The position numbers and the translations under genes are program-made. Positions 3,129 to 22,564 of a DNA stretch of 64,000 nt are shown piece by piece. Each line of letters begins with the position of its first letter. The stretch's first letter is position 1. The notes under the pieces were generated by a model. That model saw only the letters and a list, made by a program, of their open reading frames with translations. It searched no databases and was not told where the DNA came from. This DNA comes from Ostreococcus lucimarinus (Eukaryota). The stretch lies in the NCBI GenBank assembly GCA_000092065.1, contig CP000593.1; one strand, 5' to 3'.

Positions 3129-5726
3129 CTAGAAATTTGTAGTGTCGGAAACCGCACAGTTTTGTTCGTCGATCCACTTAAACCAACTTCGCCACATCTC
3201 ATTGTTTGACAAAGTTTTGCGATTTCCGAGGACGATCAATCCACGTTTCGCTCGCGTGATTCCCACGTTGAGCCGGCGCGGGTCGGCGACGAAGCCGATG
3301 TCTCCAGACGGGTTGCTTCGCACGGTGCACAAAACGATCACTTCCTTTTCTCTGCCTTGGAATCCATCAACGGAACGTATTTCGAGCTCCTCTATTTTAT
3401 CCTCTTCGGTGTAGTCCAAGTAATTTCGTTTCGGACTTCCTCCTACGCCGTATTCTTCTTGCAACCGTCGAACTTGCGCGGCGTACGGCGAGATGACGCC
3501 GATGTCCCCGGGTCCCGCTAAATCGCCCGCCGCGAGAAGTTTTCTCACCACACCGATGGCCATCTTCGCTTCTCCGACGTTATACAGACTGTTTCCATCG
3601 GGTGCTCGCGATTCAGGGGCGGAGATTTCTACGAAGGCTACTGGAACGTTCGGCGACGGCCAAGCGATACCCGGCACCAACGGACGATCTTGCGGCGTCG
3701 GTACCGATCCTACTTTCCCTTTGTAAAACGCCAGAGACGGAAATTCGGCGATTTGCGGATGCATGCGGTACTGCATGTCTAGCAAAGACACCTTCACCCC
3801 GAGCCTCTCCATGCGCTCAAAGATTGAAACTTGTAAGCCAGCGTCGACGGCGTCACGAGACACCACCGTGGGAGGCAATTGCTTGGAATCACCCACGAGC
3901 ACGGCGCTCAAGGCTTTCGTGAGAGAGATTAACGCTCCTGGTTCGGTGCATTGTGTCGCCTCATCCACGACAGCCACTGGGAACGTGAAGTCCTCCAGTA
4001 ACTCGTCGCCTGCGCCGACGCATGTGGTGCACACGACATCCACAGACTTTAATATGCTCTTCGCAGCCGTCAGTTCCAACTGCGTCGCTTGCTTGCGCTG
4101 GCGAGCAAACGCTGGACCAGATTGTCCTCGGATAGCTTCACGCATGGCCGCCGCTTGACGCCCGAGAGGGTGCAACGCGATTTGAGCATCCAGCGTGAGT
4201 TGCTGAAGCCAAGGTTGCACCTTTGCGGGCGCTCCCACGCGCACGACTCGCAGCGGTCGTCCATCGACGATGAAAGATTCTTTTGCCAGTCCTTCGAGGA
4301 TATTATCCACGGCTACGTTCGACGCAGCGGAAGCGAGAACGATCGGACCCCTTCCTCGCCTCTTTTGGATGGACGCCAGGTGTACGGCAGCACCGATGTA
4401 CGCTATGAGCGTGCGAGTCTTACCCGTACCGGGCGGACCTTGCCAAACCGCGAGCGAAGAGCTTAGCGCGCTTTTCACGGCGACGCGCTGGCTTGGGTTC
4501 AACGGCTCTCGCACTTCCTTCAACGCCATCGCGAGTTGCGGCTTTTGCGCCTTGCCCGCCCAATGCGGCGGCGTCGCCGCCAATTCCTCCAGCGTTCCGT
4601 TTTCATCGGGCACGCCGAGCAAGGCGCGCTGCAAAGTTGCGTACGCCGTGGAAGAACTGTTCTTATCGCTCGCGCGCGTGGACATGGAAGACGCGCCGGA
4701 CATGCCTCCCGGTTCAGAAAATGCGACGAGCGCCGCGAGCGAGCGATCGTGGGCCACCGTGTTCGCGCTCAAATCCACCCTCCATCTCGAGCCTTCGGAC
4801 ACGAGTCGAGAGAGATCATCCTCGTGAATGGCGACGGTGATGAAAAACATCGACCTCAGCGCGACGACGCCCGTGATTCCACCCGCGGCTTCGTGGTCGT
4901 CGCCTTCGCTGAGCTGTACCATGTCTCCAGTCGTGAAGCGATGATACGGCAACTCTTGTCCGAGCGGATTCGCCTCGCTCGCGTCCTTGTAAGGAATCGT
5001 CAAACGCACGAGCGAATCTCGCTGAAGCGTTCCTTCGTACTTCGCGCGCACGCCTAAAATCGCGTATCCCTCCGCGACGAGCCGCTCTCGCGGCCACGTG
5101 TTCAATCGCTCCTCCGCGAGCGCCATCTCTTCCTCGAGCTCGCACTTCAAACCTTTCGCAAACCTCTCCCTGTGCGCGGCGTACCCCAATCGCAGCGCCG
5201 CTCGATTACTCCCTCTCGATCTCGACGACGACGACGCGGACGAAGACGCGTTCCTCGCGTCTCCGTCGAGCAAGTGCGCGTACCGCGCGCCCCCGCTCTC
5301 GCCGCCCGTCGCCCCCAACCGCGCCCACATCTTTTCCCGTTCCTCCGCCGCCTTCCTCGGATCTCTCGCCCCCGCCTTACTGTACCCGATCGTCTTCTCC
5401 GCCCTCTCCGGCGTCGCCGTCAAGTCCCTCACCCTCGTCCGTCGCCGCGCCGGCGCCGCGCGCGTCCCCTCTCCTCCCCTCGTCGTCGCGTCGCCGCGTC
5501 CCGTTCCCTCCACCTTTCGTCGCGCGCGCGCCGCCCGACGTCGCTCGCCCCTCGCGCTCGCGCTCTCCGTCCTCGTCGCCTCCGTCCCGTCGTCGCCATC
5601 GCGCGCGTCGTCGCCCGTCCGTCGTCGTCGTCCCGTCGCCGCGACGCGACCGCCCCGTCCCTTCCCGCGCGCCGTCGTCGTCGCGACGCCGCGACGCGCG
5701 CCATCGCGCGACGCCGCGACGCGCAT
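3129..5726 (-). CDS. Upf1-like superfamily-1 helicase (AAA_11/AAA_12 type). The Arg/Gly-rich N-terminus of the ORF is probably over-extended
   Basis: Walker A VWQGPPGTGKTRT and motif II VVDEATQCTEP. The C-terminal AAA_12 signatures are GFQGREKEVIVLCTVRSN and VGITRAKRGLIVLGN. Confidence 0.7.
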   Translation of the reverse strand: MRVAASRDGARRGVATTTARGKGRGGRVAATGRRRRTGDDARDGDDGTEATRTESASARGERRRAARARRKVEGTGRGDATTRGGEGTRAAPARRRTRVRDLTATPERAEKTIGYSKAGARDPRKAAEEREKMWARLGATGGESGGARYAHLLDGDARNASSSASSSSRSRGSNRAALRLGYAAHRERFAKGLKCELEEEMALAEERLNTWPRERLVAEGYAILGVRAKYEGTLQRDSLVRLTIPYKDASEANPLGQELPYHRFTTGDMVQLSEGDDHEAAGGITGVVALRSMFFITVAIHEDDLSRLVSEGSRWRVDLSANTVAHDRSLAALVAFSEPGGMSGASSMSTRASDKNSSSTAYATLQRALLGVPDENGTLEELAATPPHWAGKAQKPQLAMALKEVREPLNPSQRVAVKSALSSSLAVWQGPPGTGKTRTLIAYIGAAVHLASIQKRRGRGPIVLASAASNVAVDNILEGLAKESFIVDGRPLRVVRVGAPAKVQPWLQQLTLDAQIALHPLGRQAAAMREAIRGQSGPAFARQRKQATQLELTAAKSILKSVDVVCTTCVGAGDELLEDFTFPVAVVDEATQCTEPGALISLTKALSAVLVGDSKQLPPTVVSRDAVDAGLQVSIFERMERLGVKVSLLDMQYRMHPQIAEFPSLAFYKGKVGSVPTPQDRPLVPGIAWPSPNVPVAFVEISAPESRAPDGNSLYNVGEAKMAIGVVRKLLAAGDLAGPGDIGVISPYAAQVRRLQEEYGVGGSPKRNYLDYTEEDKIEELEIRSVDGFQGREKEVIVLCTVRSNPSGDIGFVADPRRLNVGITRAKRGLIVLGNRKTLSNNEMWRSWFKWIDEQNCAVSDTTNF

Positions 5727-12255: not shown

Positions 12256-15200
12256 TTGCGCGATGACTTCCCGGACTGTTTGCCCATACGGAAACTGCCG
12301 CGGACGATTTCGAGCCGTTCGTTCGCCCGTCGCCGCACCGCGCGACGCGCGACGACGGCGACGCGGGCGCCGACGCGCGGCGCGGCGACGACGGCGACGA
12401 TGACGCCGCGCGTCGCGACGACGGCGACGACGCGCCCGACGCCGCGCGCGACGCGAGACGAGAGACGCGCGCGCGGAGGACGACGCGCGGCGGCTGCGGC
12501 GCACGATGGACGACGAAGCGACGCGATGGGACGCGCGATGACGACGCGGGGAGGCGAACGAACGACGCGAGGACGATCGACGTCGTACGATGAAGCGATG
12601 ACGACGCGGGAGTCGGGAGAGACGCGACCGAGACGCGCGGAGACGACGATGGAGGGCGAGGGCGGGTGCGCGGCGACGGCGACGCGGACGACGAACGCGC
12701 AGGGCGTGCACACGGTGTCGATCGCGCTGAAGACGCTGCCGAAGGGAGTGGCGAACGCGAGGGAGGTGACGTTTCATTGGGGGGTGATGCGGGAAAAGAC
12801 GGGGAAGACGTGGCAGGTGTTGCCGAGCGAGTTGCACCCGCCGAACACCGAATATTACAAGGGCGACAAGGCGATGCGGAGCGCGTTTCCGGTGTGGGGA
12901 CCGGTGAACTTAGTGCTCGATCCGCAGGCGAAGAGCGTCGCGTTCGCGCTGTACGTCGAAAAGACTGGAGAGTGGATCAACGCGGTCGGGGGTGGGAATT
13001 TCGAGATCGACCTCGCGGCGGAAACGCCGTCGACGGCGGTCAAAGCGGCGGCGAGCGCCGTCGAAGCGCCCGCGCCGACGCCGAAGGAGGAAATCCTGAA
13101 GACGGCGCCGAAGGTGACTGTGAAGGCGACGGCGACAGAGATGACGAGTGCACTCACCGATCCCATCGAGCTTCTCATCGCGGACATGGCTCGTGTGGAA
13201 TGGGAAGCCGTCGGACGTCCGGGCCTCGACGCCCAGACTCGGGACGACATGCTCAGGCGCGCGGCGGATCAAATCAAAAGTAAGCTCGCCGAGGGTATGA
13301 GTTTTGAGCAAATCGCGGCCGGTGACGCTAGCGTGAAGAGTGTTCCCAAGGTTGTCGCGACTGAAGCGCCCAAGGTGGTTGCGAAGACGATTGAGACGCC
13401 AATCGCGACGAAGAAGTTTTCCCTCGAGGATTTCCAGGCTGTCGCGCAGGACAGAGCGACCGACGACACGAACGTCAAGTGGAATAAACTGTACGAAGAA
13501 GGTGGTACGACGATATTCGTGGAGGCGCGAGAAGTGAATGGTAGTGGGATCCAATTACACGTCTTGGCGGACTCCAAAGACGATCTTATCATTCATTGGG
13601 GCGCGACGACGACGACGGATGGCTCATGGAAACCGCCGCCGCACGGTTTCAGCACTCAACCCTCTCGTTCATGGGCTTCCTCGGGCAGCAGTTGGGAGAC
13701 TGAGCTCGAACGCATCAGTCCCAATCTTCGAGCGGTGACTTTGGATGTGCCGTTGGATGTAAAAGCGCGCGAGGGCATCATCTTTGTGCTACGAACAACG
13801 TCAAACAAATGGATCAAGAATGGTCGAGACGACTTTTTTGCCTCCCTCGAGGGTTCGGTTCTCGAGCGTCCGGCTAAGACGGAGAAAAAGTCGGAGCGTC
13901 GCAAAGATTCCCAACAAGATCGATCGCGTAAAGAGAGCCGTAGCGAACCAGTCGTCGTCAAAGTCGCGAAGAAGGAGAAGCCTGCGCCAATCAAGCGAGA
14001 CCGCTGGGACGTCGACGACATCGCGCTCGATCAGGGCGTATTCCAAAACTTGGGCGGTTTTGTCGCGCAGGATATGGTTGACAGGATTTGTGGCGAAGAA
14101 TCGGGTGCAACACGATCTTTGATGCATCGATACAACGCTGGCGCAGACATGTTGGGCGCAATGCACGGCGCGGGCGAACCCGGACTCACCGCCCTCTTCT
14201 GTTGGTTCCGCTTCATGGCGTTGAGACAGTTGGTCTGGAATAACGATTACAACATCAAGCCACGAGAAATTAGTGCAGCGCAGGCGAGAATGACAGAGGG
14301 TCTGAGTGCGATTTACAGACAAGATCCTGAGTACAGAGACATCGTGCGTCTCATCATGGCTACGATTGGCAGAGGTGGCGACGGAGACGTCGGTCAGCGC
14401 ATTCGAGACGAGATTCTTGCCGTTCAGCAAAAGAACAACTGCAAGGGTGGAATGATGGAAGAGTGGCATCAAAAGTTGCACAACAACACGTCGCCGGACG
14501 ATGTTCCTATTTGTGAGGCGTTGCTCAAATTTATTGCGGCAGATTGCGACATCAGCGTTTATTGGGCGCACCTTCACGCCAACGGCATTGACGCCGCGCG
14601 GATGAAAGCTTACGACCGCCAAATTTGTAGCGAACCCAGCTTCTCTCGAGATCAATACGAAGGTTTGACGGCTGATTTGACCGAGTATCTTCGCACGCTG
14701 AAGGCGGTGCACTCTGGTGCTGATCTTGATTCAGCCGCAGAGGCGTGCCTCGGTTACCACCAAGATGCGTGCAAAGGTAAGGAGATCAATATTCCTCCGA
14801 TTCGTGAAGTTGCGAGCGAACGTCTGGAAGAGCTCTTATGCGCAGCGCGAGAGTTACGTTCTGAAGATCCTTTGCTCGCGCTCGAAGCGATGATTGAGGC
14901 GAGAAGATACCTTTGGACGTGGACTCGTCCCGGCGGAAAATCAAACGATCGCATCAAGGATGTCATTTATCTCGATCTTGCGTTAGAAGGTGCGGCGCGT
15001 TCGGTCATCGAAGGATCTCTTGAATCTTTGCCTACTCGAGCTCCTTACGAAGTTTTGAGAATCATGAGCCTCGTCCTCGAGAATCTTTGCATGTCTGCAA
15101 GCGGCAACCACGAGTTGCGCATTTGCCTGAAAGAGTGGCAAAATGTGCTTGAAGCAGCGAGACGCCAAGGAGATTGGGCTTTGCAGGCAAAAGCGGTGTG

Positions 15201-16833
15201 CGATCGACTGCAAAACTCGCTTGGCGAAATTTCTCAGCGCTATATTGACGCACTTCAGCCGACGGCACAGAGCATGGGAAACAAGCTCGGTGTGGATGGA
15301 CACGTGCTCGACCTGTTCTCGGAAGAAATCATCCGTGGAACTGCAGCGGCGCCACTTTCTCAAATGCTCAGAGTTCTCGACCCAGTTATTCGTAATGTTG
15401 CGAACATGGGCAGCTGGCAAATCGTCAGTAACGCCGAGTGTAGTGGCGTGATTGTTTCGGTCGCATCCCTCGCCGATGTGCAAAATGTCAAGTATTCTCA
15501 ACCGACTGTCATTATTGCCGACCGCGTTGGTGGCGAAGAGGACATTCCGGTTGGCGTGGTCGCGATCGTTACTCCTGATATGCCAGATGTGCTGTCTCAC
15601 TGCGCCGTTCGCGCCCGTAACGAAAAGGTTCTTTTCGCTACTTTGTTTGACGTGAATGTTCTAGAACAGATGAAAGCCATGACCGGGAAATCCGTGCAAC
15701 TCAAGCCGTCTGCGCAGGGCGACGATTTGCAATTCGATGTTGTCGACGGCATCATCGGTACCGACGCGGAGGTCATAGCAACATCGTCGAGCGATTCCGT
15801 TTCGAGTGACATATCGATCATCAAACGTCCGTTTCAAGGAAAATTTGTCGCCACGTCATCAGAGTTTACCCCAGAGCTTGTCGGCGGCAAATCTCGAAAC
15901 TTGCAACTCCTTCGCGGTCGAGTCTCAAACCTCATAAAGTTACCGCCGTCCGTTGCGATGCCTTTTGGTACGTTCGATGCAGTTCTTGATGTCCCTGAGA
16001 ATGCAGGCGCAAAGAGACAAATTGCAGAGTTAGTCAAACAACTTGAAGCGTACGACTCCACAGACGGCGTTGGCTTCAAAGCACTCATTGCGGAAGTCAA
16101 GGCATGTATCGCCACTTTAAAACCGACGGCCGACCTGTCGAAAAGTTTGAAAGTCGCCTTCGAAGCCGAATCACTCGGTTGGCCGGGAGATCTCGTGACG
16201 AGCGCTCAAGGTCAAAAGGCATGGAAGACGATTCTTGGCGTATGGGCAAGCAAGTACAACGAGCGAGCCGTTTTGAGTTGCAAAAAGGCAGGGCTGAATC
16301 ACGCCGATTTGTCCATGGCTGTGCTTTGTCAGCCCGTCGTTCGTGCGCGATACGCATTCGTACTGCACACAGTGAATCCACAAAACAACGACAAGAGCGA
16401 AATTTACGGTGAGCTTGTGTGTGGTCTGGGCGAAGCGCTCGTCGGTAACTTTTCTGGTCGAGCATTGTCATTCAAGACATCCAAGAGCAATTTGGATAAT
16501 CCGACCGTCGTCGGGTTCCCTTCGAAGTCAAAAGGACTTTTCATGGAGCAAGATTCACTTATTTTCCGATCCGATAGTAACGGCGAAGACCTGGAAGGGT
16601 TCGCCGGTGCGGGCTTGTACGATAGCATCACCATGGAGGAGGCAACGTTGAAAAACGTCGACTACTCCACCGACAGCCTCATTACGGACGAAACCAAGCG
16701 ACAAAAGCTTTTAGCGACCATCTCCAAGGTTGCACTAGAGATTGAGACACTTTGTGGGTCTCCTCAAGACATTGAGGGCGCGATATCTGAAGATGGGCAG
16801 CTCTACATCGTTCAAACGCGACCTCAAGTGTAG
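12256..16833 (+). CDS. GWD: alpha-glucan, water dikinase (GWD/R1, starch phosphorylation). The first 100-130 codons of the ORF are low-complexity and overlap the start of the ankyrin gene, so the true start is probably further downstream
   Basis: The phosphohistidine domain VVAIVTPDMPDVLSHCAVRARNEKVLFATLFD matches the GWD catalytic His motif LSHVSVRARN. The C-terminal PPDK-type nucleotide-binding domain includes GGKSRNLQLLRG and GLYDSI. The N-terminus has CBM45-like Trp-containing segments (VTFHWGV...W). Confidence 0.85.
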   Translation: MRDDFPDCLPIRKLPRTISSRSFARRRTARRATTATRAPTRGAATTATMTPRVATTATTRPTPRATRDERRARGGRRAAAAAHDGRRSDAMGRAMTTRGGERTTRGRSTSYDEAMTTRESGETRPRRAETTMEGEGGCAATATRTTNAQGVHTVSIALKTLPKGVANAREVTFHWGVMREKTGKTWQVLPSELHPPNTEYYKGDKAMRSAFPVWGPVNLVLDPQAKSVAFALYVEKTGEWINAVGGGNFEIDLAAETPSTAVKAAASAVEAPAPTPKEEILKTAPKVTVKATATEMTSALTDPIELLIADMARVEWEAVGRPGLDAQTRDDMLRRAADQIKSKLAEGMSFEQIAAGDASVKSVPKVVATEAPKVVAKTIETPIATKKFSLEDFQAVAQDRATDDTNVKWNKLYEEGGTTIFVEAREVNGSGIQLHVLADSKDDLIIHWGATTTTDGSWKPPPHGFSTQPSRSWASSGSSWETELERISPNLRAVTLDVPLDVKAREGIIFVLRTTSNKWIKNGRDDFFASLEGSVLERPAKTEKKSERRKDSQQDRSRKESRSEPVVVKVAKKEKPAPIKRDRWDVDDIALDQGVFQNLGGFVAQDMVDRICGEESGATRSLMHRYNAGADMLGAMHGAGEPGLTALFCWFRFMALRQLVWNNDYNIKPREISAAQARMTEGLSAIYRQDPEYRDIVRLIMATIGRGGDGDVGQRIRDEILAVQQKNNCKGGMMEEWHQKLHNNTSPDDVPICEALLKFIAADCDISVYWAHLHANGIDAARMKAYDRQICSEPSFSRDQYEGLTADLTEYLRTLKAVHSGADLDSAAEACLGYHQDACKGKEINIPPIREVASERLEELLCAARELRSEDPLLALEAMIEARRYLWTWTRPGGKSNDRIKDVIYLDLALEGAARSVIEGSLESLPTRAPYEVLRIMSLVLENLCMSASGNHELRICLKEWQNVLEAARRQGDWALQAKAVCDRLQNSLGEISQRYIDALQPTAQSMGNKLGVDGHVLDLFSEEIIRGTAAAPLSQMLRVLDPVIRNVANMGSWQIVSNAECSGVIVSVASLADVQNVKYSQPTVIIADRVGGEEDIPVGVVAIVTPDMPDVLSHCAVRARNEKVLFATLFDVNVLEQMKAMTGKSVQLKPSAQGDDLQFDVVDGIIGTDAEVIATSSSDSVSSDISIIKRPFQGKFVATSSEFTPELVGGKSRNLQLLRGRVSNLIKLPPSVAMPFGTFDAVLDVPENAGAKRQIAELVKQLEAYDSTDGVGFKALIAEVKACIATLKPTADLSKSLKVAFEAESLGWPGDLVTSAQGQKAWKTILGVWASKYNERAVLSCKKAGLNHADLSMAVLCQPVVRARYAFVLHTVNPQNNDKSEIYGELVCGLGEALVGNFSGRALSFKTSKSNLDNPTVVGFPSKSKGLFMEQDSLIFRSDSNGEDLEGFAGAGLYDSITMEEATLKNVDYSTDSLITDETKRQKLLATISKVALEIETLCGSPQDIEGAISEDGQLYIVQTRPQV

Positions 16834-17045: not shown

Positions 17046-18938
17046 TCACGCGACGGTTCCAATCTTCGCGTCTGGAGAGAGATATTTCTTCAAGACGTTC
17101 GGAGGGTGGAGCATGTTGAACTCTTCAGTGGCATCCTTTCCGGCGAAGAGCATGATCGCTTTCTTTCCACCTGGATGATCGGGCAAGAAAGTCGTGAGAT
17201 CGTAAACGGCGCCCTCGATGATGACCCAGAGGTCGCCCTCGGAGTTGTGCTTCGCGATTTCATCCATGGTGATAGCGCGAGCACCGCCACCGCTAGACAC
17301 TGGCGCGGCGGACGCCGTGCTCATGGATGGGTTGATCTTGTCGTTCAAGTTAGCGACGCGATTAAGAGCGACGGATTGACCAGATCTAAGCGCCTTGATA
17401 GCCGTCGCCATGAGGTGTCGAGAAACTGAGGCACCCGCGACGCGACCAAAGACGACGCAATCCAACAGAGAGTTACCACCGAGTCGGTTACGGCCGTGAA
17501 TACCCCCAACGACCTCGCCCGCACCGTATAAACCAGGAATCGGTCCTGACGACCCGACGATTTGCGAATCAGTGTTGATGGCGAGTCCACCCATGGTGTA
17601 GTGCACGACGGTGCACACGATGGCGGAGTGAAAGAAATCATTCATTTCGAACGGAGCGTTGGTGAAAAACTTTTTACCGAACGGACACTTCTTCGTTCGA
17701 GCGGCTTCGTTGTACTTGGCAAAGGTGTCGGCGAGCTTTTGTGGACTGATGCCCATTTCTTTTGCAACTTCGGCACCCGTATCGTGACGCTTCATGATGC
17801 CTCGCCCGACGTAATGCTTGCAGTGCCATTCGATCTCCTTTGAAGCCTTGCCGTTCAGAATCAAACGGAAAGGCCCTTTGTTTCTGTTCATTTCACCACT
17901 GACGTAGTCTCGTCGACCGAGCTCATCGGCGAATCTGTTCCCGTCTGCGTCCAGGAGGATGCCTCCGACGCCTCGAAGCGCCTCGGCGGCTAAGAACTTC
18001 ACCTTGGAATCTGGCTCTGAAGGGTTGACTAATCCGGTAGGATGCACTTGCACAGACTCCATATCGATCGTATCCGCTCCGACGGCCAAGGCCATCTTGA
18101 TTCCATCCCCCGTGCAGTGGTCACCGTTCGTCGTCGGCAGCGCCTGCAAGTCGGGTCGGTACTTTTTCAACAACGAGTCTGACTGGTAATCCGCACCGAA
18201 ACCACCGGTAGCGATGACGACTGGACCGTACTCTTGATGTAAAGCGCCACCCTTCTCGTATTCCACCCCGATCACGGTACCACTTCCGTCCTTTAGCAAC
18301 CGCTTTGCCTCGGCTTTGGTCACGATTCGCGCAATTTCCCCATTCGTCTCCTCCATAATCTTCTCCAACCCCTCCATCAGGGCGTACGTGATCGTGAACC
18401 CTGGGAACCGCTCTTTGCCTCGATGCGTTCGCGGGAACGAGTGCCCACCGAGCTGCGCGACGAGGGACAAGTCAAGGTTAAACTTTTCCATCAACCAATC
18501 CACGCTCGAACCGCTTCCTTGCGCCAGCACCTTTGCGAGCGGCACCGTGTGTGCCGGCGCTTCGGTGTGCCCGACGCCCGCCGCGCCCTTGATGATATCA
18601 TCTTCAAACTTATCAGCGCTGTCGGGAATGTTCAACCGCGCCTGCGTCTTCGTCAACGCTCCGTTAATCCCACTCGTCGCCTTCGTGCTGTTCCCGCCCA
18701 GGAAGGAACATTTGTCGAGCAACACGACGCGCGCGCCGTGTTCGATGACGGTGTGCGCCGCGGACAGGCCCGCGAGACCACCGCCGATGACGATGACTTG
18801 ATCAGCCATGTCGACGGCGAGTCTGACGACGCACGACGACGCGTTATGACGACGAACACGCGCCGCAATCCGATCGCGATTATTTTTAACGACCTCGCGA
18901 TGGGACGTCGGTCGAGGTTCGCGAACCGCGCTCGGCAC
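17046..18938 (-). CDS. soluble fumarate reductase/succinate dehydrogenase-type flavoprotein (OSM1/FRD-like) with a C-terminal cytochrome b5 domain
   Basis: FAD motif VIVIGGGLAGLSAAHTV...GGNS, the FAD_binding_2 active-site region HYTMGG and a GAGEV...GRNRLGGNSL tail. The C-terminus carries a cytochrome b5 fold, ITMDEIAKHNSEGDLWVIIEGAVYDLTTFLPDHPGG. Confidence 0.8.
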   Translation of the reverse strand: MPSAVREPRPTSHREVVKNNRDRIAARVRRHNASSCVVRLAVDMADQVIVIGGGLAGLSAAHTVIEHGARVVLLDKCSFLGGNSTKATSGINGALTKTQARLNIPDSADKFEDDIIKGAAGVGHTEAPAHTVPLAKVLAQGSGSSVDWLMEKFNLDLSLVAQLGGHSFPRTHRGKERFPGFTITYALMEGLEKIMEETNGEIARIVTKAEAKRLLKDGSGTVIGVEYEKGGALHQEYGPVVIATGGFGADYQSDSLLKKYRPDLQALPTTNGDHCTGDGIKMALAVGADTIDMESVQVHPTGLVNPSEPDSKVKFLAAEALRGVGGILLDADGNRFADELGRRDYVSGEMNRNKGPFRLILNGKASKEIEWHCKHYVGRGIMKRHDTGAEVAKEMGISPQKLADTFAKYNEAARTKKCPFGKKFFTNAPFEMNDFFHSAIVCTVVHYTMGGLAINTDSQIVGSSGPIPGLYGAGEVVGGIHGRNRLGGNSLLDCVVFGRVAGASVSRHLMATAIKALRSGQSVALNRVANLNDKINPSMSTASAAPVSSGGGARAITMDEIAKHNSEGDLWVIIEGAVYDLTTFLPDHPGGKKAIMLFAGKDATEEFNMLHPPNVLKKYLSPDAKIGTVA

Positions 18939-19051: not shown

Positions 19052-21652
19052 TCACGCCGCGAGCTCTGTCGCGAGCGCGCTCAAGAGGACGTCGCACGCG
19101 TCTTTGGACGTCGTCGGCGCGCACATGAGGTAGACGACGTTACCCAGAGGACGCGCTTGGATGGAGTGGGGAAGAAGACGCATGACGACGTCTCGAGCGG
19201 CGTTGGAGCTATAACCACCTTCACCTTCGACCTCGAGCTCGACGGCGAGGACACAACCCTGACCGATGACTCGGCGAACGTTGCTCAAAGTGGAAATTTT
19301 CTTCAACGCGTCCTCGTCCCAGAGCTCGCGAAGCACCGACGTAGGCTCGCCCGTACTCGAAGACTTTGAGACGATCACGTTGCGATTTTTCGCGGGGTCT
19401 TTGTACATAGAAAGCGCTTTCGCCGCCACGGCGCATCCCATGGGGTATGCCGTGTACGAGTGCCCGTGTAACAAGCCCTGGGCTTTTCCAGGGCCGTAAA
19501 AAGCGTCGAAGACATCCGCCGTCGCGAGCGTGGCTGACATGGGAATGAGCCCACCAGTGAGAAGTTTTGCGTAGCACGAAATATCGGGTTTTTCGCCTAT
19601 GATTTCCCACGCACCTTCCGTGCCTAATCGCCAAATGCCAGCAAATACCTCGTCCAAGACGACTGGAATCTTTCGCTCGCGGCACGACTTCATGAGAATG
19701 TTTTGAAACAACGGATCAATCAAAACCATCCCACCTGCACCGTGAAGCACGGGTTCCATGATTAAAGCCCCGACGTGACCCATGTTATTATCCTTGGCGT
19801 CTTTCGCGGCGCGTTCTAAGACTTTGTCGATCGCAATTTTGTATTCTTTTGCGAGCGGGCTGTCGAGACGCGCAGCGATGTTGAAAGCCGCCTCCTTGCT
19901 AGTCCAACTGGTGTTCTCATCCACATCTTTGCCTTCGCGGAAGAGTCGATCGCCGTCGTTCAATAATCCATCACGCGGCAACGCCACGTTCCAACGTCCT
20001 TCTCTGATCGCTAAACTCGGAGGCTGAAGGAACAGTCCGCGAGGTTGGTACCAGGGCGTTTGCATTGGACCCGTAAAAACGCTCGGTGATTGCATATCCA
20101 TCGCACCGAGAGTATCACCGTGATACGAACCATCCAATGCTATTATTCGCAGCGGAGGTAAGTCATCGGCTCCTTTGTTGACGAGATCTTTCGCTCTCTG
20201 ATTGCCGTCTTTAGACACAAAGCCTGCGTCGACGTAAAACTTGCGAAAAGCCATTTTCAACCCAACCTCTGTCGCAGTCGATCCGTTGTCGGAATAAAAT
20301 GCTCTAGCTGCCCAACCTTTCCCAGGTCCTTCTAATAATGCCGTCGTCGCGTCCACGGCGGGCTGGTGCACGTTTTCTGGAAACATCGCGTGCCCGAATC
20401 GTCCCGCCGCATGCGTCGCGGTGCGAACCAACTCTTGCTGCAATTCTGGACTCAAACCTTGCGTCCACCAACTCGCTGAACCATCAAAGCGAAGTACTAT
20501 GGAGCCATCTTTCGATGAGTGCGTGTTTTGGGCGTAGATTGCGAAATCTTCACCATATCTCCCATCGATCACCGTGACGGCGTCGCGCTCCACCATCGCG
20601 TGCTGCGTAAACGGCCACCAAATCTTCGTCAGAGCCTCGTCTGGAAGACTTTGCAGAGTTTTGATGCGATCGTCGTGCCATTTTGTGATGTATTTCAGTA
20701 AATCGTCGAACGTGTGCTTTGAGTCTTCGAGCCAAGCGTCCGCTTGTCCTTCTGGGGGCAGAGGCGGAAGCGCCCAGACGCGGGTTTCGCTCGGCAAAAT
20801 CTTTGCCATGGCTTTGTGATTGGCCAAACCATCATCGTCCGCCATGACGATGGCGACGATGTCGTACCCTCTCGCGTGCAGTGATTCGTACGCGGCCGTG
20901 GTGGCAGATATCCCGCCCAAACGCCCGTCACCCACGAGTATGGCTGGCAATCGTAGCCCGCGCAAAAGCTCGCATTGCAGCGTTCCCGACGGCCCCGGAC
21001 TCGCCACCCCTCCCGCGGTTTCGACGAGCGCCAACGCTCGCTGCTGCCCCGATTCGTTCGCTCGCATTTTTTCCGCGAATTCTCTCAAATATCTCGACGT
21101 CGCTCGCACGATGTCATCGTCTAAAACGCCTCTCCCCTCCTCCGCCGCGCTCACGTGCGGCCCCGCGGGGCGTCGCCACGCAAACTCGGTGTGCGCCCAC
21201 GCCCCTCGATCGCCCTCTAATCCTTTCCTCGCCGTTTCTCCCGCCGCCACCGCCGCGTGTTCGCCCATGCTCTCCACGCCACCGCTCACGCGCGCCACGA
21301 ACGCGGCGTCTGAATCTTCTGGGAATCCCGTCTGCACGGGTTTCACGAAGAGCGTCCCCGCCTCCGCGCTCCGCGCCGCGCGCGCCAGTCCTCCCGACAC
21401 CAGCGTCTTCCCGACCGCGGTGTTCGCCCCCCACACCGCGAACGCGGCGCACGTCAGTTCGACGTCCCGCGCCGCCCGCGTCGCCAGCGCGCGGCGTCCC
21501 GCGTCCCGCTCGACCCGTCGCTCGCGCGCGCGCGGTAACCGCCGCGCCGTCGTCGTCGTCGTCGTCGTCGTCGTCGCGCCCGTCGTCGCGCCCGTCGTCG
21601 CGCCCGCGCATCGTCGCGCGAGCGCGCGCATCGCGTCGCGTCGTCCGCCTCG
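19052..21652 (-). CDS. BIO3-BIO1: bifunctional dethiobiotin synthetase / 7,8-diaminopelargonic acid aminotransferase (BIO3-BIO1 type; BioD-BioA fusion)
   Basis: The N-terminal BioD P-loop is FAVWGANTAVGKTLVSGGL...KPVQTG. The C-terminal class-III aminotransferase shows GSYHGDTLGAMD, HVGALIMEPVLHGAGGM and VVLDEVFAGIWRLG. The track ORF extends to 22021 through a low-complexity region that overlaps the divergent CSN7-like gene. Confidence 0.8.
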   Translation of the reverse strand, partial: RGGRRDAMRALARRCAGATTGATTGATTTTTTTTTARRLPRARERRVERDAGRRALATRAARDVELTCAAFAVWGANTAVGKTLVSGGLARAARSAEAGTLFVKPVQTGFPEDSDAAFVARVSGGVESMGEHAAVAAGETARKGLEGDRGAWAHTEFAWRRPAGPHVSAAEEGRGVLDDDIVRATSRYLREFAEKMRANESGQQRALALVETAGGVASPGPSGTLQCELLRGLRLPAILVGDGRLGGISATTAAYESLHARGYDIVAIVMADDDGLANHKAMAKILPSETRVWALPPLPPEGQADAWLEDSKHTFDDLLKYITKWHDDRIKTLQSLPDEALTKIWWPFTQHAMVERDAVTVIDGRYGEDFAIYAQNTHSSKDGSIVLRFDGSASWWTQGLSPELQQELVRTATHAAGRFGHAMFPENVHQPAVDATTALLEGPGKGWAARAFYSDNGSTATEVGLKMAFRKFYVDAGFVSKDGNQRAKDLVNKGADDLPPLRIIALDGSYHGDTLGAMDMQSPSVFTGPMQTPWYQPRGLFLQPPSLAIREGRWNVALPRDGLLNDGDRLFREGKDVDENTSWTSKEAAFNIAARLDSPLAKEYKIAIDKVLERAAKDAKDNNMGHVGALIMEPVLHGAGGMVLIDPLFQNILMKSCRERKIPVVLDEVFAGIWRLGTEGAWEIIGEKPDISCYAKLLTGGLIPMSATLATADVFDAFYGPGKAQGLLHGHSYTAYPMGCAVAAKALSMYKDPAKNRNVIVSKSSSTGEPTSVLRELWDEDALKKISTLSNVRRVIGQGCVLAVELEVEGEGGYSSNAARDVVMRLLPHSIQARPLGNVVYLMCAPTTSKDACDVLLSALATELAA

Positions 21653-21787
21653 CATCGCCCTCGACCGCGCCGACGTCGCGATGTGACCGCGGAGAGAAGA
21701 ATGGATGCGTGGATGGATGGATGAACAGATGGCGCGATTGGGATTCGGGGCCGATCGATCGACACTCGCGCGCGTCGTTCGCTCGCG

Positions 21788-22564
21788 ATGCGCGCCGACG
21801 ACGAGGACGATGCGATGGCGTCGATGACGCCCGACGACGGCGCGGTGACGCGGTGCGCGACGTCGATCGCGACGACGAAGACGCTCGATCGCGACGCGCT
21901 CGGCGAGGCGCTCGAGGCGCGCGACGCGATGCGCGTGACGAAGATACTGCACGCCATGGAGCGCACGGAGGGGTTCGAGTGCGCGGCGGAGGTGCGCGCG
22001 ATGGTGGAAATATTCGCGCACGGCACGCTGCGCGAATATCGCGCGCGAGCGGCAAACGAAAAGTTGCCGACGCTGACGACGCGCGAGGAGGCGAAACTGA
22101 AGCGACTGTCGACGTGCGCGCTGTGCGCGGAGGGAGGGACGATCGCGTACGTACGATTGATGCGAGAGCTGGAGTTCACGAGCGAACGCGCGATGGAAAA
22201 GTTCATCGTCGACGAGTGCCTGGGAGAAATCGTGTGGGGAAGGCTCGATCCGAAAAATAAAGTTTTACGGGTTCGACGCGCGAAGGCGAGAGACGCGCGA
22301 GCGAGCGCGCTCGACGGCGTCATCGCGGACGTCTCGCGGTGGCACGCGATAACGGAAACGATGTTGGCGAGTTTGAATGAGCAAATTGCGTACGTGTCGA
22401 GTGAAAAAGCGGAATCACTGGCGCGCGAGGACGAGCTCAACGCCGCGATAGAGGAGACGAAGAAACAACTCAAAGCCGCCGAGCCGGACGTCGCCGAGCG
22501 CGTCGACGAGGACGAGGACATGGACGAGGACGGTCCGAGCACGGGCGTGAAACGAAGACGATAG
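21788..22564 (+). CDS. PCI-domain protein, COP9 signalosome subunit 7 (CSN7)-like
   Basis: LTTREEAKLKRLSTCALCAEGGTIAYVRLMRELEFTSERAMEKFIVDECLGEIVWGRLDPKNKVLRV fits the CSN7 PCI core, with an acidic tail. Confidence 0.5.
   Translation: MRADDEDDAMASMTPDDGAVTRCATSIATTKTLDRDALGEALEARDAMRVTKILHAMERTEGFECAAEVRAMVEIFAHGTLREYRARAANEKLPTLTTREEAKLKRLSTCALCAEGGTIAYVRLMRELEFTSERAMEKFIVDECLGEIVWGRLDPKNKVLRVRRAKARDARASALDGVIADVSRWHAITETMLASLNEQIAYVSSEKAESLAREDELNAAIEETKKQLKAAEPDVAERVDEDEDMDEDGPSTGVKRRR

What the first reader, a model, noticed from the sequence alone, without database searches (positions are those of the whole stretch)
17046..18938. Fusion of a fumarate reductase flavoprotein with cytochrome b5
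A soluble FRD/OSM1-type FAD flavoprotein carries a C-terminal cytochrome b5 haem domain (HPGG) in a single ORF. The arrangement recalls yeast OSM1/FRD1 and trypanosomatid NADH-fumarate reductase, which couple fumarate reduction to a b5-type electron entry. It is relevant to anaerobic redox balance and oxidative protein folding in a phototroph.
Basis: partly seen in the sequence, partly recalled or inferred. Interest (0 to 1): 0.5.

Follow-up and report, generated by a model that had tools for sequence, protein, structure and literature searches.

The report
Fumarate reductase fused to cytochrome b5
This is a real single gene of an Ostreococcus-type green alga that joins a soluble fumarate-reductase flavoenzyme to a small haem (cytochrome b5) domain; the design is already annotated in many eukaryotes, so the finding is correct but ordinary.

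Summary
One uninterrupted reading frame on the minus strand encodes a FAD_binding_2 fumarate-reductase domain followed by a C-terminal Cyt-b5 domain. Both score far above the Pfam cut-offs.

The coordinates need trimming. The first 43 codons contain no ATG, so the gene is 18809..17046 (587 aa, MADQVIVIGGG…) and has no targeting peptide.

All six catalytic or substrate-binding residues of Shewanella Fcc3 and yeast Osm1 are present and invariant in 54 homologues, as are both haem-ligand histidines. The predicted fold matches Osm1 (TM 0.90). A roughly 30-residue disordered tether connects it to the b5 domain.

The architecture is not new:
- The O. tauri orthologue (91% identical, same neighbouring genes) is annotated.
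- 110 of the 120 best database hits carry the same two domains, including a fungus, a ciliate, a syndinian and Rigifila.
- The b5 domain is 73% identical to the crystallised stand-alone b5 of the prasinovirus OtV-2.

Osm1 and Frd1 have no haem domain. The trypanosomatid enzyme carries a b5-reductase domain, not a b5. Nothing supports a role in oxidative protein folding.

The most likely function is a cytosolic fumarate reductase whose tethered b5 haem is the electron entry point. The electron donor is unknown, and I found no biochemical study of this enzyme type. Interest is low.

The parts
17046..18809 (-). Complete CDS of the FRD-cytochrome b5 fusion protein: 587 aa plus a TGA stop at 17046-17048, single exon
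   Evidence: First ATG after the in-frame stop. The translation is 587 aa with one terminal stop. The identical protein is called on marine metagenome contigs in 503 index blocks. Orthologues start at the same M-x-[DE]-Q-V-I-V-I-G-G-G.
18810..18938 (-). It contains no ATG and is not conserved.
   Evidence: The ORF start here is a GTG under table 11. The in-frame translation shows a stop and then no Met until 18809. The upstream DNA of four Ostreococcus lineages aligns poorly, with indels that are not multiples of three.
17466..18797 (-). Fumarate-reductase flavoprotein part (flavin plus clamp domains), residues 5-448. It contains the GGGLAG dinucleotide-binding motif and the catalytic residues H256, E276, R279, R300, H403 and R442.
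   Evidence: Pfam FAD_binding_2 E 1.8e-70. TIGR01813 scores above its cut-off. Osm1 5glg matches at E 5e-89. Foldseek gives TM 0.90 and rmsd 2.3 A to Osm1. The catalytic residues are invariant in 17 and in 54 homologues.
17271..17465 (-). Inter-domain region, residues 449-513. It consists of a C-terminal helix of the flavoprotein, a short conserved NRVANLNDKINP segment and a low-complexity Ser/Ala/Gly tether. Residues 480-509 (17283-17372) are predicted to be disordered.
   Evidence: AlphaFold2 pLDDT is below 50 for residues 480-509. Length and sequence vary among homologues. The linker sequence is given.
17052..17270 (-). Cytochrome b5 haem-binding domain, residues 514-586. It carries HPGG (H545) and the second axial histidine H568, and has no membrane anchor.
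   Evidence: Pfam Cyt-b5 E 7.4e-25. It is 73% identical to the OtV-2 viral b5 (PDB 4b8n) and 54% identical to the b5 core of yeast flavocytochrome b2. H545 and H568 are invariant. The maximum 19-residue hydropathy in the whole protein is 1.54, and it falls at the N-terminal Rossmann strand.

Best explanation
The gene encodes a soluble, probably cytosolic, flavocytochrome fumarate reductase of a Mamiellales green alga (Ostreococcus clade).

Proposed mechanism:
1. A C-terminal cytochrome b5 domain hangs on a flexible tether of about 30 residues.
2. This domain picks up single electrons from an external donor, most plausibly an NADH-cytochrome b5 reductase.
3. It swings onto the flavoprotein and passes the electrons to the non-covalently bound FAD.
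4. The FAD reduces fumarate to succinate by the hydride and proton mechanism established for Shewanella Fcc3 and yeast Osm1.

The b5 domain would thus play the part that the tetrahaem c domain plays in Fcc3. Physiologically the enzyme would be an oxygen-independent sink for cytosolic reducing equivalents in the dark or under hypoxia.

Shown here: the domain architecture, the active-site and haem-ligand residues, the fold, the flexible tether, the absence of targeting signals, and conservation of the fusion.

Inferred: haem and FAD occupancy, the direction of electron flow, the identity of the donor, the localisation and the physiological role.
For: - Domains: FAD_binding_2 plus Cyt-b5 in one ORF; TIGR01813 flavocytochrome c scores above its curated cut-off.
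- Active site: the six residues shown by mutagenesis to be needed in Osm1 (H281, E301, R304, R326, H435, R477, equivalent to Fcc3 H365, E378, R381, R402, H504, R544; PMC6242907) correspond to H256, E276, R279, R300, H403 and R442. All are invariant in 54 homologues.
- Flavin: where the membrane-bound SdhA/FrdA enzymes have the His that binds FAD covalently (RSHT), this protein has NSTK (T42). This matches Osm1, whose FAD is non-covalent. Established knowledge associates a non-covalent flavin in this family with the fumarate-reducing direction.
- Fold: TM 0.90 to Osm1 and about 0.72 to Fcc3.
- Haem domain: HPGG and both histidines are invariant. A near-identical stand-alone copy from the virus OtV-2 has been crystallised with a haem moiety and is redox-active (PDB 4b8n; PMC11814380 and PMC5371798).
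- Tether: residues 480-509 have pLDDT below 50, between two well-folded parts.
- No N-terminal extension, transmembrane segment, CxxCH motif or PTS1.
- The fusion is conserved across Mamiellales, a ciliate, a syndinian, Rigifila and a basidiomycete; the basidiomycete protein is named 'fumarate reductase (NADH)' by UniRef.
Against: - No enzyme of this exact architecture was found to have been characterised in the searchable literature, so activity and electron donor are extrapolated from Osm1 and Fcc3.
- From my own knowledge, typical b5 haems (around 0 mV) are more positive than the FAD of Fcc3 (around -150 mV). Haem-to-FAD transfer would then be uphill unless this b5 is a low-potential variant, as in nitrate reductase. 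The potential cannot be read from the sequence.
- The closest non-viral b5 relative in the PDB is the b5 core of flavocytochrome b2, where electrons flow out of the flavin into the haem. That is the opposite of the direction proposed here.
- Cytosolic localisation is inferred only from the absence of signals.
Confidence: 0.62

Rival explanations
1. The b5 domain is the electron exit rather than the entry, as in flavocytochrome b2. The flavoprotein would be reduced by free reduced flavins (as Osm1 is) or by another substrate. It would then hand electrons to its b5 haem, which would deliver them to b5-dependent acceptors such as desaturases, CYP51 or cytochrome c. Fumarate would be only one of two competing outlets.
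For: Apart from the viral copy, the b5 domain's closest solved relative is the flavocytochrome b2 core (54% identity), where the flow is from flavin to haem. The virus-borne copy of this very domain can supply electrons to a CYP51 in vitro (PMC11814380). Transfer from FAD to b5 would be thermodynamically downhill (my own knowledge of typical potentials).
Against: The complete fumarate-binding and proton-delivery set is invariant across the family, which implies selection on fumarate reduction. Succinate oxidation by a non-covalent, low-potential FAD is unfavourable (established knowledge for this family). Only 4 of the 9 residues of Osm1's free-flavin pocket are retained, so reduction by free flavins is not assured either.
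Confidence: 0.12
2. The protein would be an Osm1-like oxidant regenerator for oxidative protein folding, taking electrons from Ero1 in the ER or Erv1 in the mitochondrial intermembrane space under anoxia.
For: Osm1 is the closest characterised homologue and has this role in yeast (PMC6242907 and PMC5638582).
Against: Osm1 reaches the ER and mitochondria through N-terminal sequences produced from two start codons. Here the protein starts at the Rossmann fold, the upstream region has no ATG and is not conserved, and there is no hydrophobic segment. According to the Osm1 authors' docking model, Ero1 docks near where the Fcc3 haem domain sits, and their Fcc3-haem/Osm1 chimera lost Ero1 binding.
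Confidence: 0.05
3. The flavoprotein reduces a substrate other than fumarate, such as urocanate, (meth)acrylate or another enoate, as some other TIGR01813-family members do.
For: Urocanate reductase is also a good sequence and fold match (E 2.6e-48; rank 17). The family is functionally diverse.
Against: Both histidines and both arginines that hold the two carboxylates of fumarate, together with the Glu-Arg-Arg proton relay, are conserved and invariant. Matches to fumarate reductases are much stronger than to urocanate reductase.
Confidence: 0.06
4. The fusion is a gene-model artefact: two adjacent genes, or an unseen intron or stop, read as a single ORF.
For: None was found.
Against: The frame is continuous with one terminal stop. 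The identical 587-aa product appears on hundreds of independent contigs. The fusion is present in a complete transcript ORF of a relative and in 110 of the top 120 homologues. The whole length aligns colinearly with those homologues.
Confidence: 0.01

Closest known systems
Ostreococcus tauri orthologue (P0004; GCA_002158475.1, contig KZ155784.1; named 'cytochrome b5' by NCBI/UniRef). A prasinovirus review says the OtV-2 viral b5, unlike this host version, 'lacks a reductase domain'.
   Same: 91% identical over the full length, with the same two domains. The gene order is also the same: BIO3-BIO1, then FRD-b5, then a convergent glucan-water dikinase gene.
   Different: The O. tauri gene model carries 24 extra N-terminal residues from an upstream ATG. 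That ATG does not exist in this window, and the region is not conserved in other lineages.
Yeast soluble fumarate reductases Osm1 and Frd1 (PDB 5glg)
   Same: Flavin and clamp domains have the same fold (TM 0.90, 38% identity). All six catalytic residues are shared. FAD is non-covalent.
   Different: Osm1 has no haem domain and takes electrons from free flavins through a second flavin pocket, or from Ero1. Only 4 of its 9 pocket residues are retained here, and the algal family has an invariant EIEWHCKHY in place of Osm1's YTNNINFY. Osm1 is targeted to the ER and mitochondria, whereas this protein has no targeting signal.
Shewanella flavocytochrome c3 (Fcc3; PDB 1qjd, 1d4c)
   Same: Same logic: a haem domain fused to the same flavoprotein as a built-in electron entry. 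Same active site.
   Different: The Fcc3 haem domain is N-terminal and holds four c-type haems bound through CxxCH motifs. Here the haem domain is C-terminal, holds a single b-type haem in a b5 fold, and there is no CxxCH motif. Fcc3 is periplasmic, while this protein is probably cytosolic.
Trypanosomatid NADH-dependent fumarate reductase (T. brucei FRDg and FRDm1)
   Same: A central FRD domain of the same family, with a C-terminal redox module fused to it.
   Different: The trypanosomatid module is a cytochrome b5 reductase (NADH/FAD) domain, not a b5 haem domain. The enzyme also has an N-terminal ApbE-like flavin-transferase domain with covalent flavinylation, and a PTS1 or a mitochondrial signal. 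None of these is present here.
Prasinovirus stand-alone cytochrome b5 (OtV-2; PDB 4b8n)
   Same: 73% identical to the b5 domain of this gene. In 36 viral contigs the identity is 74-82%. The viral N-terminus still aligns with part of the host inter-domain linker.
   Different: The viral protein is 91-92 aa, has no flavoprotein part, and lacks the low-complexity tether.
Yeast flavocytochrome b2 (L-lactate:cytochrome c oxidoreductase; PDB 1fcb)
   Same: A b5 core tethered by a hinge to a flavoprotein. The b5 cores are 54% identical.
   Different: In b2 the b5 is N-terminal, the flavoprotein is an FMN TIM-barrel lactate dehydrogenase, and electrons flow from flavin to haem to cytochrome c.

Membership tests
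Soluble Fcc3/Osm1-type fumarate reductase flavoprotein (NCBIfam TIGR01813) | Profile score above the curated cut-off | tested here: met
   376.6 bits against a cut-off of 285.45, covering profile positions 1-443 of 444.
Soluble Fcc3/Osm1-type fumarate reductase flavoprotein (NCBIfam TIGR01813) | The six substrate-binding and proton-relay residues (Fcc3 H365, E378, R381, R402, H504, R544; Osm1 H281, E301, R304, R326, H435, R477) | tested here: met
   H256, E276, R279, R300, H403 and R442 are present and invariant in 54 homologues.
Soluble Fcc3/Osm1-type fumarate reductase flavoprotein (NCBIfam TIGR01813) | Two-domain flavin plus clamp fold | tested here: met
   The AlphaFold2 model has pLDDT mostly above 90 in this part. 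Foldseek gives TM 0.90 and rmsd 2.3 A to Osm1.
Soluble Fcc3/Osm1-type fumarate reductase flavoprotein (NCBIfam TIGR01813) | Non-covalent FAD (no His at the SdhA/FrdA flavinylation position) | tested here: met
   NSTK (T42) occupies the position of RSHT. The position was assigned from the motif as I know it, not from a computed alignment with SdhA or FrdA.
Soluble Fcc3/Osm1-type fumarate reductase flavoprotein (NCBIfam TIGR01813) | Fumarate reductase activity | not testable with these tools
   Requires an enzyme assay.
Cytochrome b5 (Pfam PF00173) | Profile score above the gathering threshold over the full domain | tested here: met
   87.2 bits against 23.7, covering profile positions 1-73 of 74.
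Cytochrome b5 (Pfam PF00173) | HPGG motif and two axial haem histidines | tested here: met
   H545 (in HPGG) and H568 are invariant in 54 homologues.
Cytochrome b5 (Pfam PF00173) | C-terminal membrane anchor of microsomal or outer-mitochondrial-membrane b5 | tested here: not met
   The protein ends 1 residue after the b5 domain. The maximum 19-residue hydropathy is 1.54 and lies at the N-terminus. It is therefore a soluble, fused b5 core and not a tail-anchored b5.
Yeast Osm1/Frd1 type (haem-less, oxidises free flavins) | Absence of any haem domain | tested here: not met
   A Cyt-b5 domain is present. Osm1 is described as lacking one.
Yeast Osm1/Frd1 type (haem-less, oxidises free flavins) | Second flavin-binding pocket (K76, S78, P162, W295, F297, L298, N359, F362, Y363) | tested here: inconclusive
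   From the alignment, K, F, L and Y are retained. The substitutions are S to T, W to V, N to H and F to H, and P162 falls at a gap. That is 4 of 9 identical.
Yeast Osm1/Frd1 type (haem-less, oxidises free flavins) | N-terminal ER or mitochondrial targeting (Osm1) | tested here: not met
   No residues precede the Rossmann strand, and the upstream region has no ATG and is not conserved. No dedicated targeting predictor was available.
Trypanosomatid NADH-fumarate reductase | [quoted passage not shown] | tested here: not met
   Pfam reports neither an ApbE domain nor an FAD_binding_6/NAD_binding_1 domain. The architecture is defined in PMC8065229.
Shewanella flavocytochrome c3 | N-terminal tetrahaem cytochrome c domain (four CxxCH motifs) | tested here: not met
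   There are no CxxCH motifs, and the protein starts at the flavin domain.

The most novel reading that the evidence does not exclude
The FRD-b5 fusion could be the ancestral and still widespread eukaryotic form of soluble fumarate reductase. On this reading yeast lost the haem domain and trypanosomatids replaced it with a b5 reductase. The enzyme would run as a cytosolic relay from NADH through a b5 reductase, the tethered b5 and FAD to fumarate, a relay that has never been characterised biochemically. Prasinoviruses, which excised exactly this b5 domain together with a piece of its linker, would then use the free domain to plug into or short-circuit the host's FRD or b5-dependent redox network during infection.
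Probability: 0.12. Interest if true: 0.5.

Novelty: already known. Interest (0 to 1): 0.15.

Why it matters
The finding matters little as a discovery. The gene is a routine orthologue of an annotated O. tauri gene, and its domain architecture is common in public protein sets.

Three points have some residual value:
1. Within the literature I could search, this widespread eukaryotic flavocytochrome has no published enzymology. Its electron donor, the direction of electron flow and its role in algal dark or hypoxic redox balance are open questions.
2. It is the evident source of the prasinovirus cytochrome b5, so knowing what the host domain does would constrain what the viral copy does.
3. It corrects a tempting but wrong equation with Osm1 (no haem domain) and with trypanosomatid FRD (a b5 reductase domain, not a b5).

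Tried and rejected
- Five literature searches for a characterised FRD-b5 enzyme found none. A search for Ostreococcus plus fumarate reductase gave only passing mentions.
- Neither the primary OtV-2 b5 paper (Reid et al. 2013, FEBS Lett) nor the OtV-2 genome paper is held in the library. My recollection is that the first names the host protein 'fumarate reductase-like'. That is memory only. It is backed indirectly by a review statement that the viral protein, unlike the host version, 'lacks a reductase domain' and by my own alignments.
- I tested the idea of a hidden N-terminal extension, either non-AUG initiation or an Osm1-like dual start, and rejected it. There is no ATG, and the upstream DNA of four lineages is unconserved, with indels that shift the frame.
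- The AFDB fold library was unavailable. Taxonomic breadth therefore rests on the few named sequence hits.
- Model coordinates are not returned by the tools, so I could not assess the haem-to-FAD docking geometry or the role of the invariant EIEWHCKHY motif.
- The high-scoring hits without a b5 domain are truncated tandem FRD-FRD polyproteins, not a distinct b5-less algal form.
Full report
**1. What is there**

The window is GC-rich (52-67%) and densely packed with long ORFs on both strands. On the minus strand an ORF runs 18938..17046. Pfam finds two domains, in 630-aa ORF numbering:
- FAD_binding_2 at residues 48-491 (E 1.8e-70).
- Cyt-b5 at residues 557-629 (E 7.4e-25).

The NCBIfam subfamily model TIGR01813 'flavocytochrome c' is matched end to end, at 376.6 bits against a curated cut-off of 285.45.

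**2. Corrected gene model**

The ORF start reported by the tool is a GTG, which is valid only under the bacterial code. Read in frame upstream, there is a stop and then no ATG until 18809.

Several results agree that the CDS is 18809..17046, 587 aa, beginning MADQVIVIGGG, which is the first strand of the Rossmann fold:
- Orthologues from other Ostreococcus lineages begin at the equivalent M-[AST]-[DE]-QVIVIGGG.
- In a DNA alignment of the upstream regions of four lineages, conservation starts exactly at this ATG. Upstream of it there are frame-breaking indels.
- The exact 587-aa protein is called independently on marine metagenome contigs in 503 index blocks, including Tara Oceans assemblies.

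The O. tauri database model carries a 24-residue N-terminal extension from a species-specific upstream ATG. That extension cannot exist here.

The protein also lacks other sorting or haem c features:
- There is no hydrophobic segment. The maximum 19-residue hydropathy is 1.54, at the Rossmann strand.
- There is no CxxCH motif.
- It ends in ...KIGTVA, which is not a PTS1.

By default it is cytosolic. This is an inference from absent signals, not a measurement.

**3. The fusion is genuine and conserved**

- The frame is continuous with a single terminal stop.
- Of the 120 best hits in a 5.8-billion-protein collection, 110 carry both FAD_binding_2 and Cyt-b5.
- One of these hits is an MMETSP transcript ORF marked 'complete' from a close relative (P0015).
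- Named members come from O. tauri (91% identity), the syndinian Amoebophrya, the ciliate Protocruzia, Rigifila (CRuMs) and the basidiomycete Rhizoctonia. UniRef calls the Rhizoctonia protein 'fumarate reductase (NADH)'.
- The gene order is the same in O. tauri (KZ155784.1) and two further lineages. It runs: dethiobiotin synthetase/DAPA aminotransferase fusion, then FRD-b5, then a convergent alpha-glucan water dikinase.

The few high-scoring hits without a b5 domain are truncated tandem FRD-FRD polyproteins. Some relatives carry two b5 domains, and some of those also a multi-span membrane tail.

**4. Anatomy**

*Flavoprotein part (residues 5-448).* The closest solved structure is yeast Osm1 (E 5e-89; Foldseek TM 0.90, rmsd 2.3 A, 38% identity). 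Shewanella flavocytochromes c3 come next.

The six residues shown by mutagenesis to be required in Osm1 and Fcc3 (PMC6242907) are present as H256, E276, R279, R300, H403 and R442. All are invariant in 17- and 54-sequence alignments.

At the position of the covalent-FAD histidine of SdhA/FrdA (RSHT) the protein has NSTK. This assignment rests on my knowledge of the motif. It matches Osm1, whose FAD is non-covalent, and it favours the fumarate-reducing direction.

*Inter-domain region (residues 449-513).* It comprises a helix, a short conserved NRVANLNDKINP segment and a Ser/Ala/Gly-rich stretch. AlphaFold2 (mean pLDDT 84.5, pTM 0.84) gives residues 480-509 a pLDDT below 50, between two well-folded parts. 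That is the signature of a flexible tether.

*b5 domain (residues 514-586).* HPGG (H545) and the second axial histidine H568 are invariant. The best PDB match is 4b8n, the stand-alone b5 of the prasinovirus OtV-2 (73% identity). The b5 core of yeast flavocytochrome b2 follows at 54%.

**5. How it most likely works**

I judge a tethered-haem fumarate reductase to be the best-supported mechanism (confidence about 0.6):
1. The mobile b5 domain accepts single electrons from a donor. A cytosolic or ER-face NADH-cytochrome b5 reductase is the obvious candidate.
2. It docks on the flavoprotein and reduces the FAD.
3. The FAD reduces fumarate through the conserved Arg/His/Glu machinery.

This is the functional analogue of the tetrahaem domain of Fcc3, and it would give the alga an oxygen-independent outlet for reducing equivalents.

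The architecture, residues, fold, tether and conservation are shown. The cofactor loading, direction of flow, donor, localisation and physiology are inferred.

The main caveat is thermodynamic and rests on my own knowledge. Ordinary b5 haems lie near 0 mV and the Fcc3 FAD near -150 mV, so the haem here would have to be a low-potential variant, or the transfer would have to be pulled by fumarate.

For that reason, and because the nearest cellular b5 relative is the b2 core, I keep a rival reading at about 0.12. In it the haem is an exit from the flavin to other acceptors.

A different enoate substrate is unlikely given the intact dicarboxylate-binding set (about 0.06). The Osm1-like role in oxidative protein folding is unlikely without ER or intermembrane-space targeting (about 0.05). 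A gene-model artefact is essentially excluded.

**6. Comparison with what is known**

- Osm1 and Frd1 are notable precisely for lacking a haem domain and for using a second flavin pocket or Ero1 instead. Only 4 of the 9 pocket residues are retained here. The algal family has an invariant EIEWHCKHY where Osm1 has YTNNINFY.
- Trypanosomatid FRD consists of an ApbE-like domain, an FRD domain and a cytochrome b5 reductase domain. It carries no b5.

The gene therefore works like a flavocytochrome fumarate reductase and is a member of the TIGR01813 flavoprotein family and of the b5 domain family. It is not a member of the Osm1/Frd1, trypanosomatid or Fcc3 architectural types.

**7. Novelty and verdict**

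The same protein is annotated in O. tauri, inconsistently, as 'cytochrome b5'. JGI names many of the homologues 'flavocytochrome c'. [quoted passage not shown] From memory, the primary paper (Reid et al. 2013), which I could not open, calls the host protein 'fumarate reductase-like'.

I therefore rate the finding as already known and of low interest (0.15).

What remains open is the enzymology of this widespread fusion, for which I found no published work.

**8. Noticed along the way**

Thirty-six giant-virus contigs in IMG/VR carry a stand-alone 91-92 aa b5 that is 74-82% identical to this domain. Its N-terminus (M-[NH]-R-[IV]..IN-[DN]-HINP) aligns with the host inter-domain segment [LM]-NRVANLNDKINP, and the low-complexity tether is deleted. 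Its nearest FRD b5 domains are those of the Ostreococcus clade. This is direct sequence evidence that the viral gene was cut out of an FRD-b5 fusion gene rather than out of a free-standing b5.

Noticed in passing
window 17052-17330 (-); viral loci L005-L040, e.g. L009:3962-4240 and L028:3962-4237: Thirty-six giant-virus (prasinovirus-like) contigs encode a stand-alone 91-92 aa cytochrome b5 that is 74-82% identical to this gene's b5 domain. The viral N-terminus still aligns with the host inter-domain segment NRVANLNDKINP, and the Ser/Ala/Gly tether is deleted. This shows that the viral gene was excised from an FRD-b5 fusion gene. It matches PDB 4b8n (OtV-2).
   Followed up: partly
L009:2568-3956 and L028:2943-3566, 4261-4818: In the viral contigs the b5 gene is flanked by ORFs that I judged, by reading their translations, to be paralogous 2OG-Fe(II)-oxygenase-like genes, and in L028 by a sigma-factor-like ORF. 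No domain search was run on them. The reading agrees with published remarks on OtV-2 and related viruses.
   Followed up: no
window protein residues 325-333 (window about 17811-17837, -): The motif EIEWHCKHY (W328, H329, C330, H332 and Y333 invariant in 54 homologues) replaces the Osm1 segment YTNNINFY, which forms part of Osm1's second flavin pocket above the active site. It is also present in the b5-less tandem-FRD fragments. It may be a docking or electron-transfer patch, but its role is unexplained.
   Followed up: partly
homologues P0030, P0046, P0061, P0088, P0045: Several FRD-b5 homologues from other taxa end in SKM, SKL or AKL. These are candidate peroxisomal PTS1 signals, reminiscent of the glycosomal FRD of trypanosomes. 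The window protein ends in GTVA and has no such signal.
   Followed up: no
homologues P0069 (Amoebophrya) and P0051: In these roughly 1008-aa relatives the FRD is followed by two tandem b5 domains and a C-terminal tail that looks, from reading its sequence, long, hydrophobic and multi-span. That would make them membrane-anchored variants of the same flavocytochrome.
   Followed up: no
homologues P0022, P0025, P0035, P0056: These are tandem FRD-FRD repeats within a single predicted protein from marine eukaryote transcriptome-type sources. They may be polyprotein-style transcripts. All are truncated.
   Followed up: no
window 19052-22021 (-) and 12256-16833 (+): The flanking genes are a dethiobiotin synthetase/DAPA aminotransferase fusion (AAA_26 plus Aminotran_3) on the same strand upstream and an alpha-glucan water dikinase convergent downstream. 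This order is conserved in O. tauri and two other Ostreococcus lineages. The mechanical ORFs overshoot the likely ATG starts into Arg/Ala/Thr-rich sequence.
   Followed up: partly
L041:1501-1572 (O. tauri KZ155784.1): The O. tauri database model starts 24 codons upstream of the conserved ATG (MPDARESSTNDRVVTRRRRSRSIA). This Arg/Ser-rich extension has no counterpart in the window or in two other lineages, and it may be an annotation artefact.
   Followed up: partly
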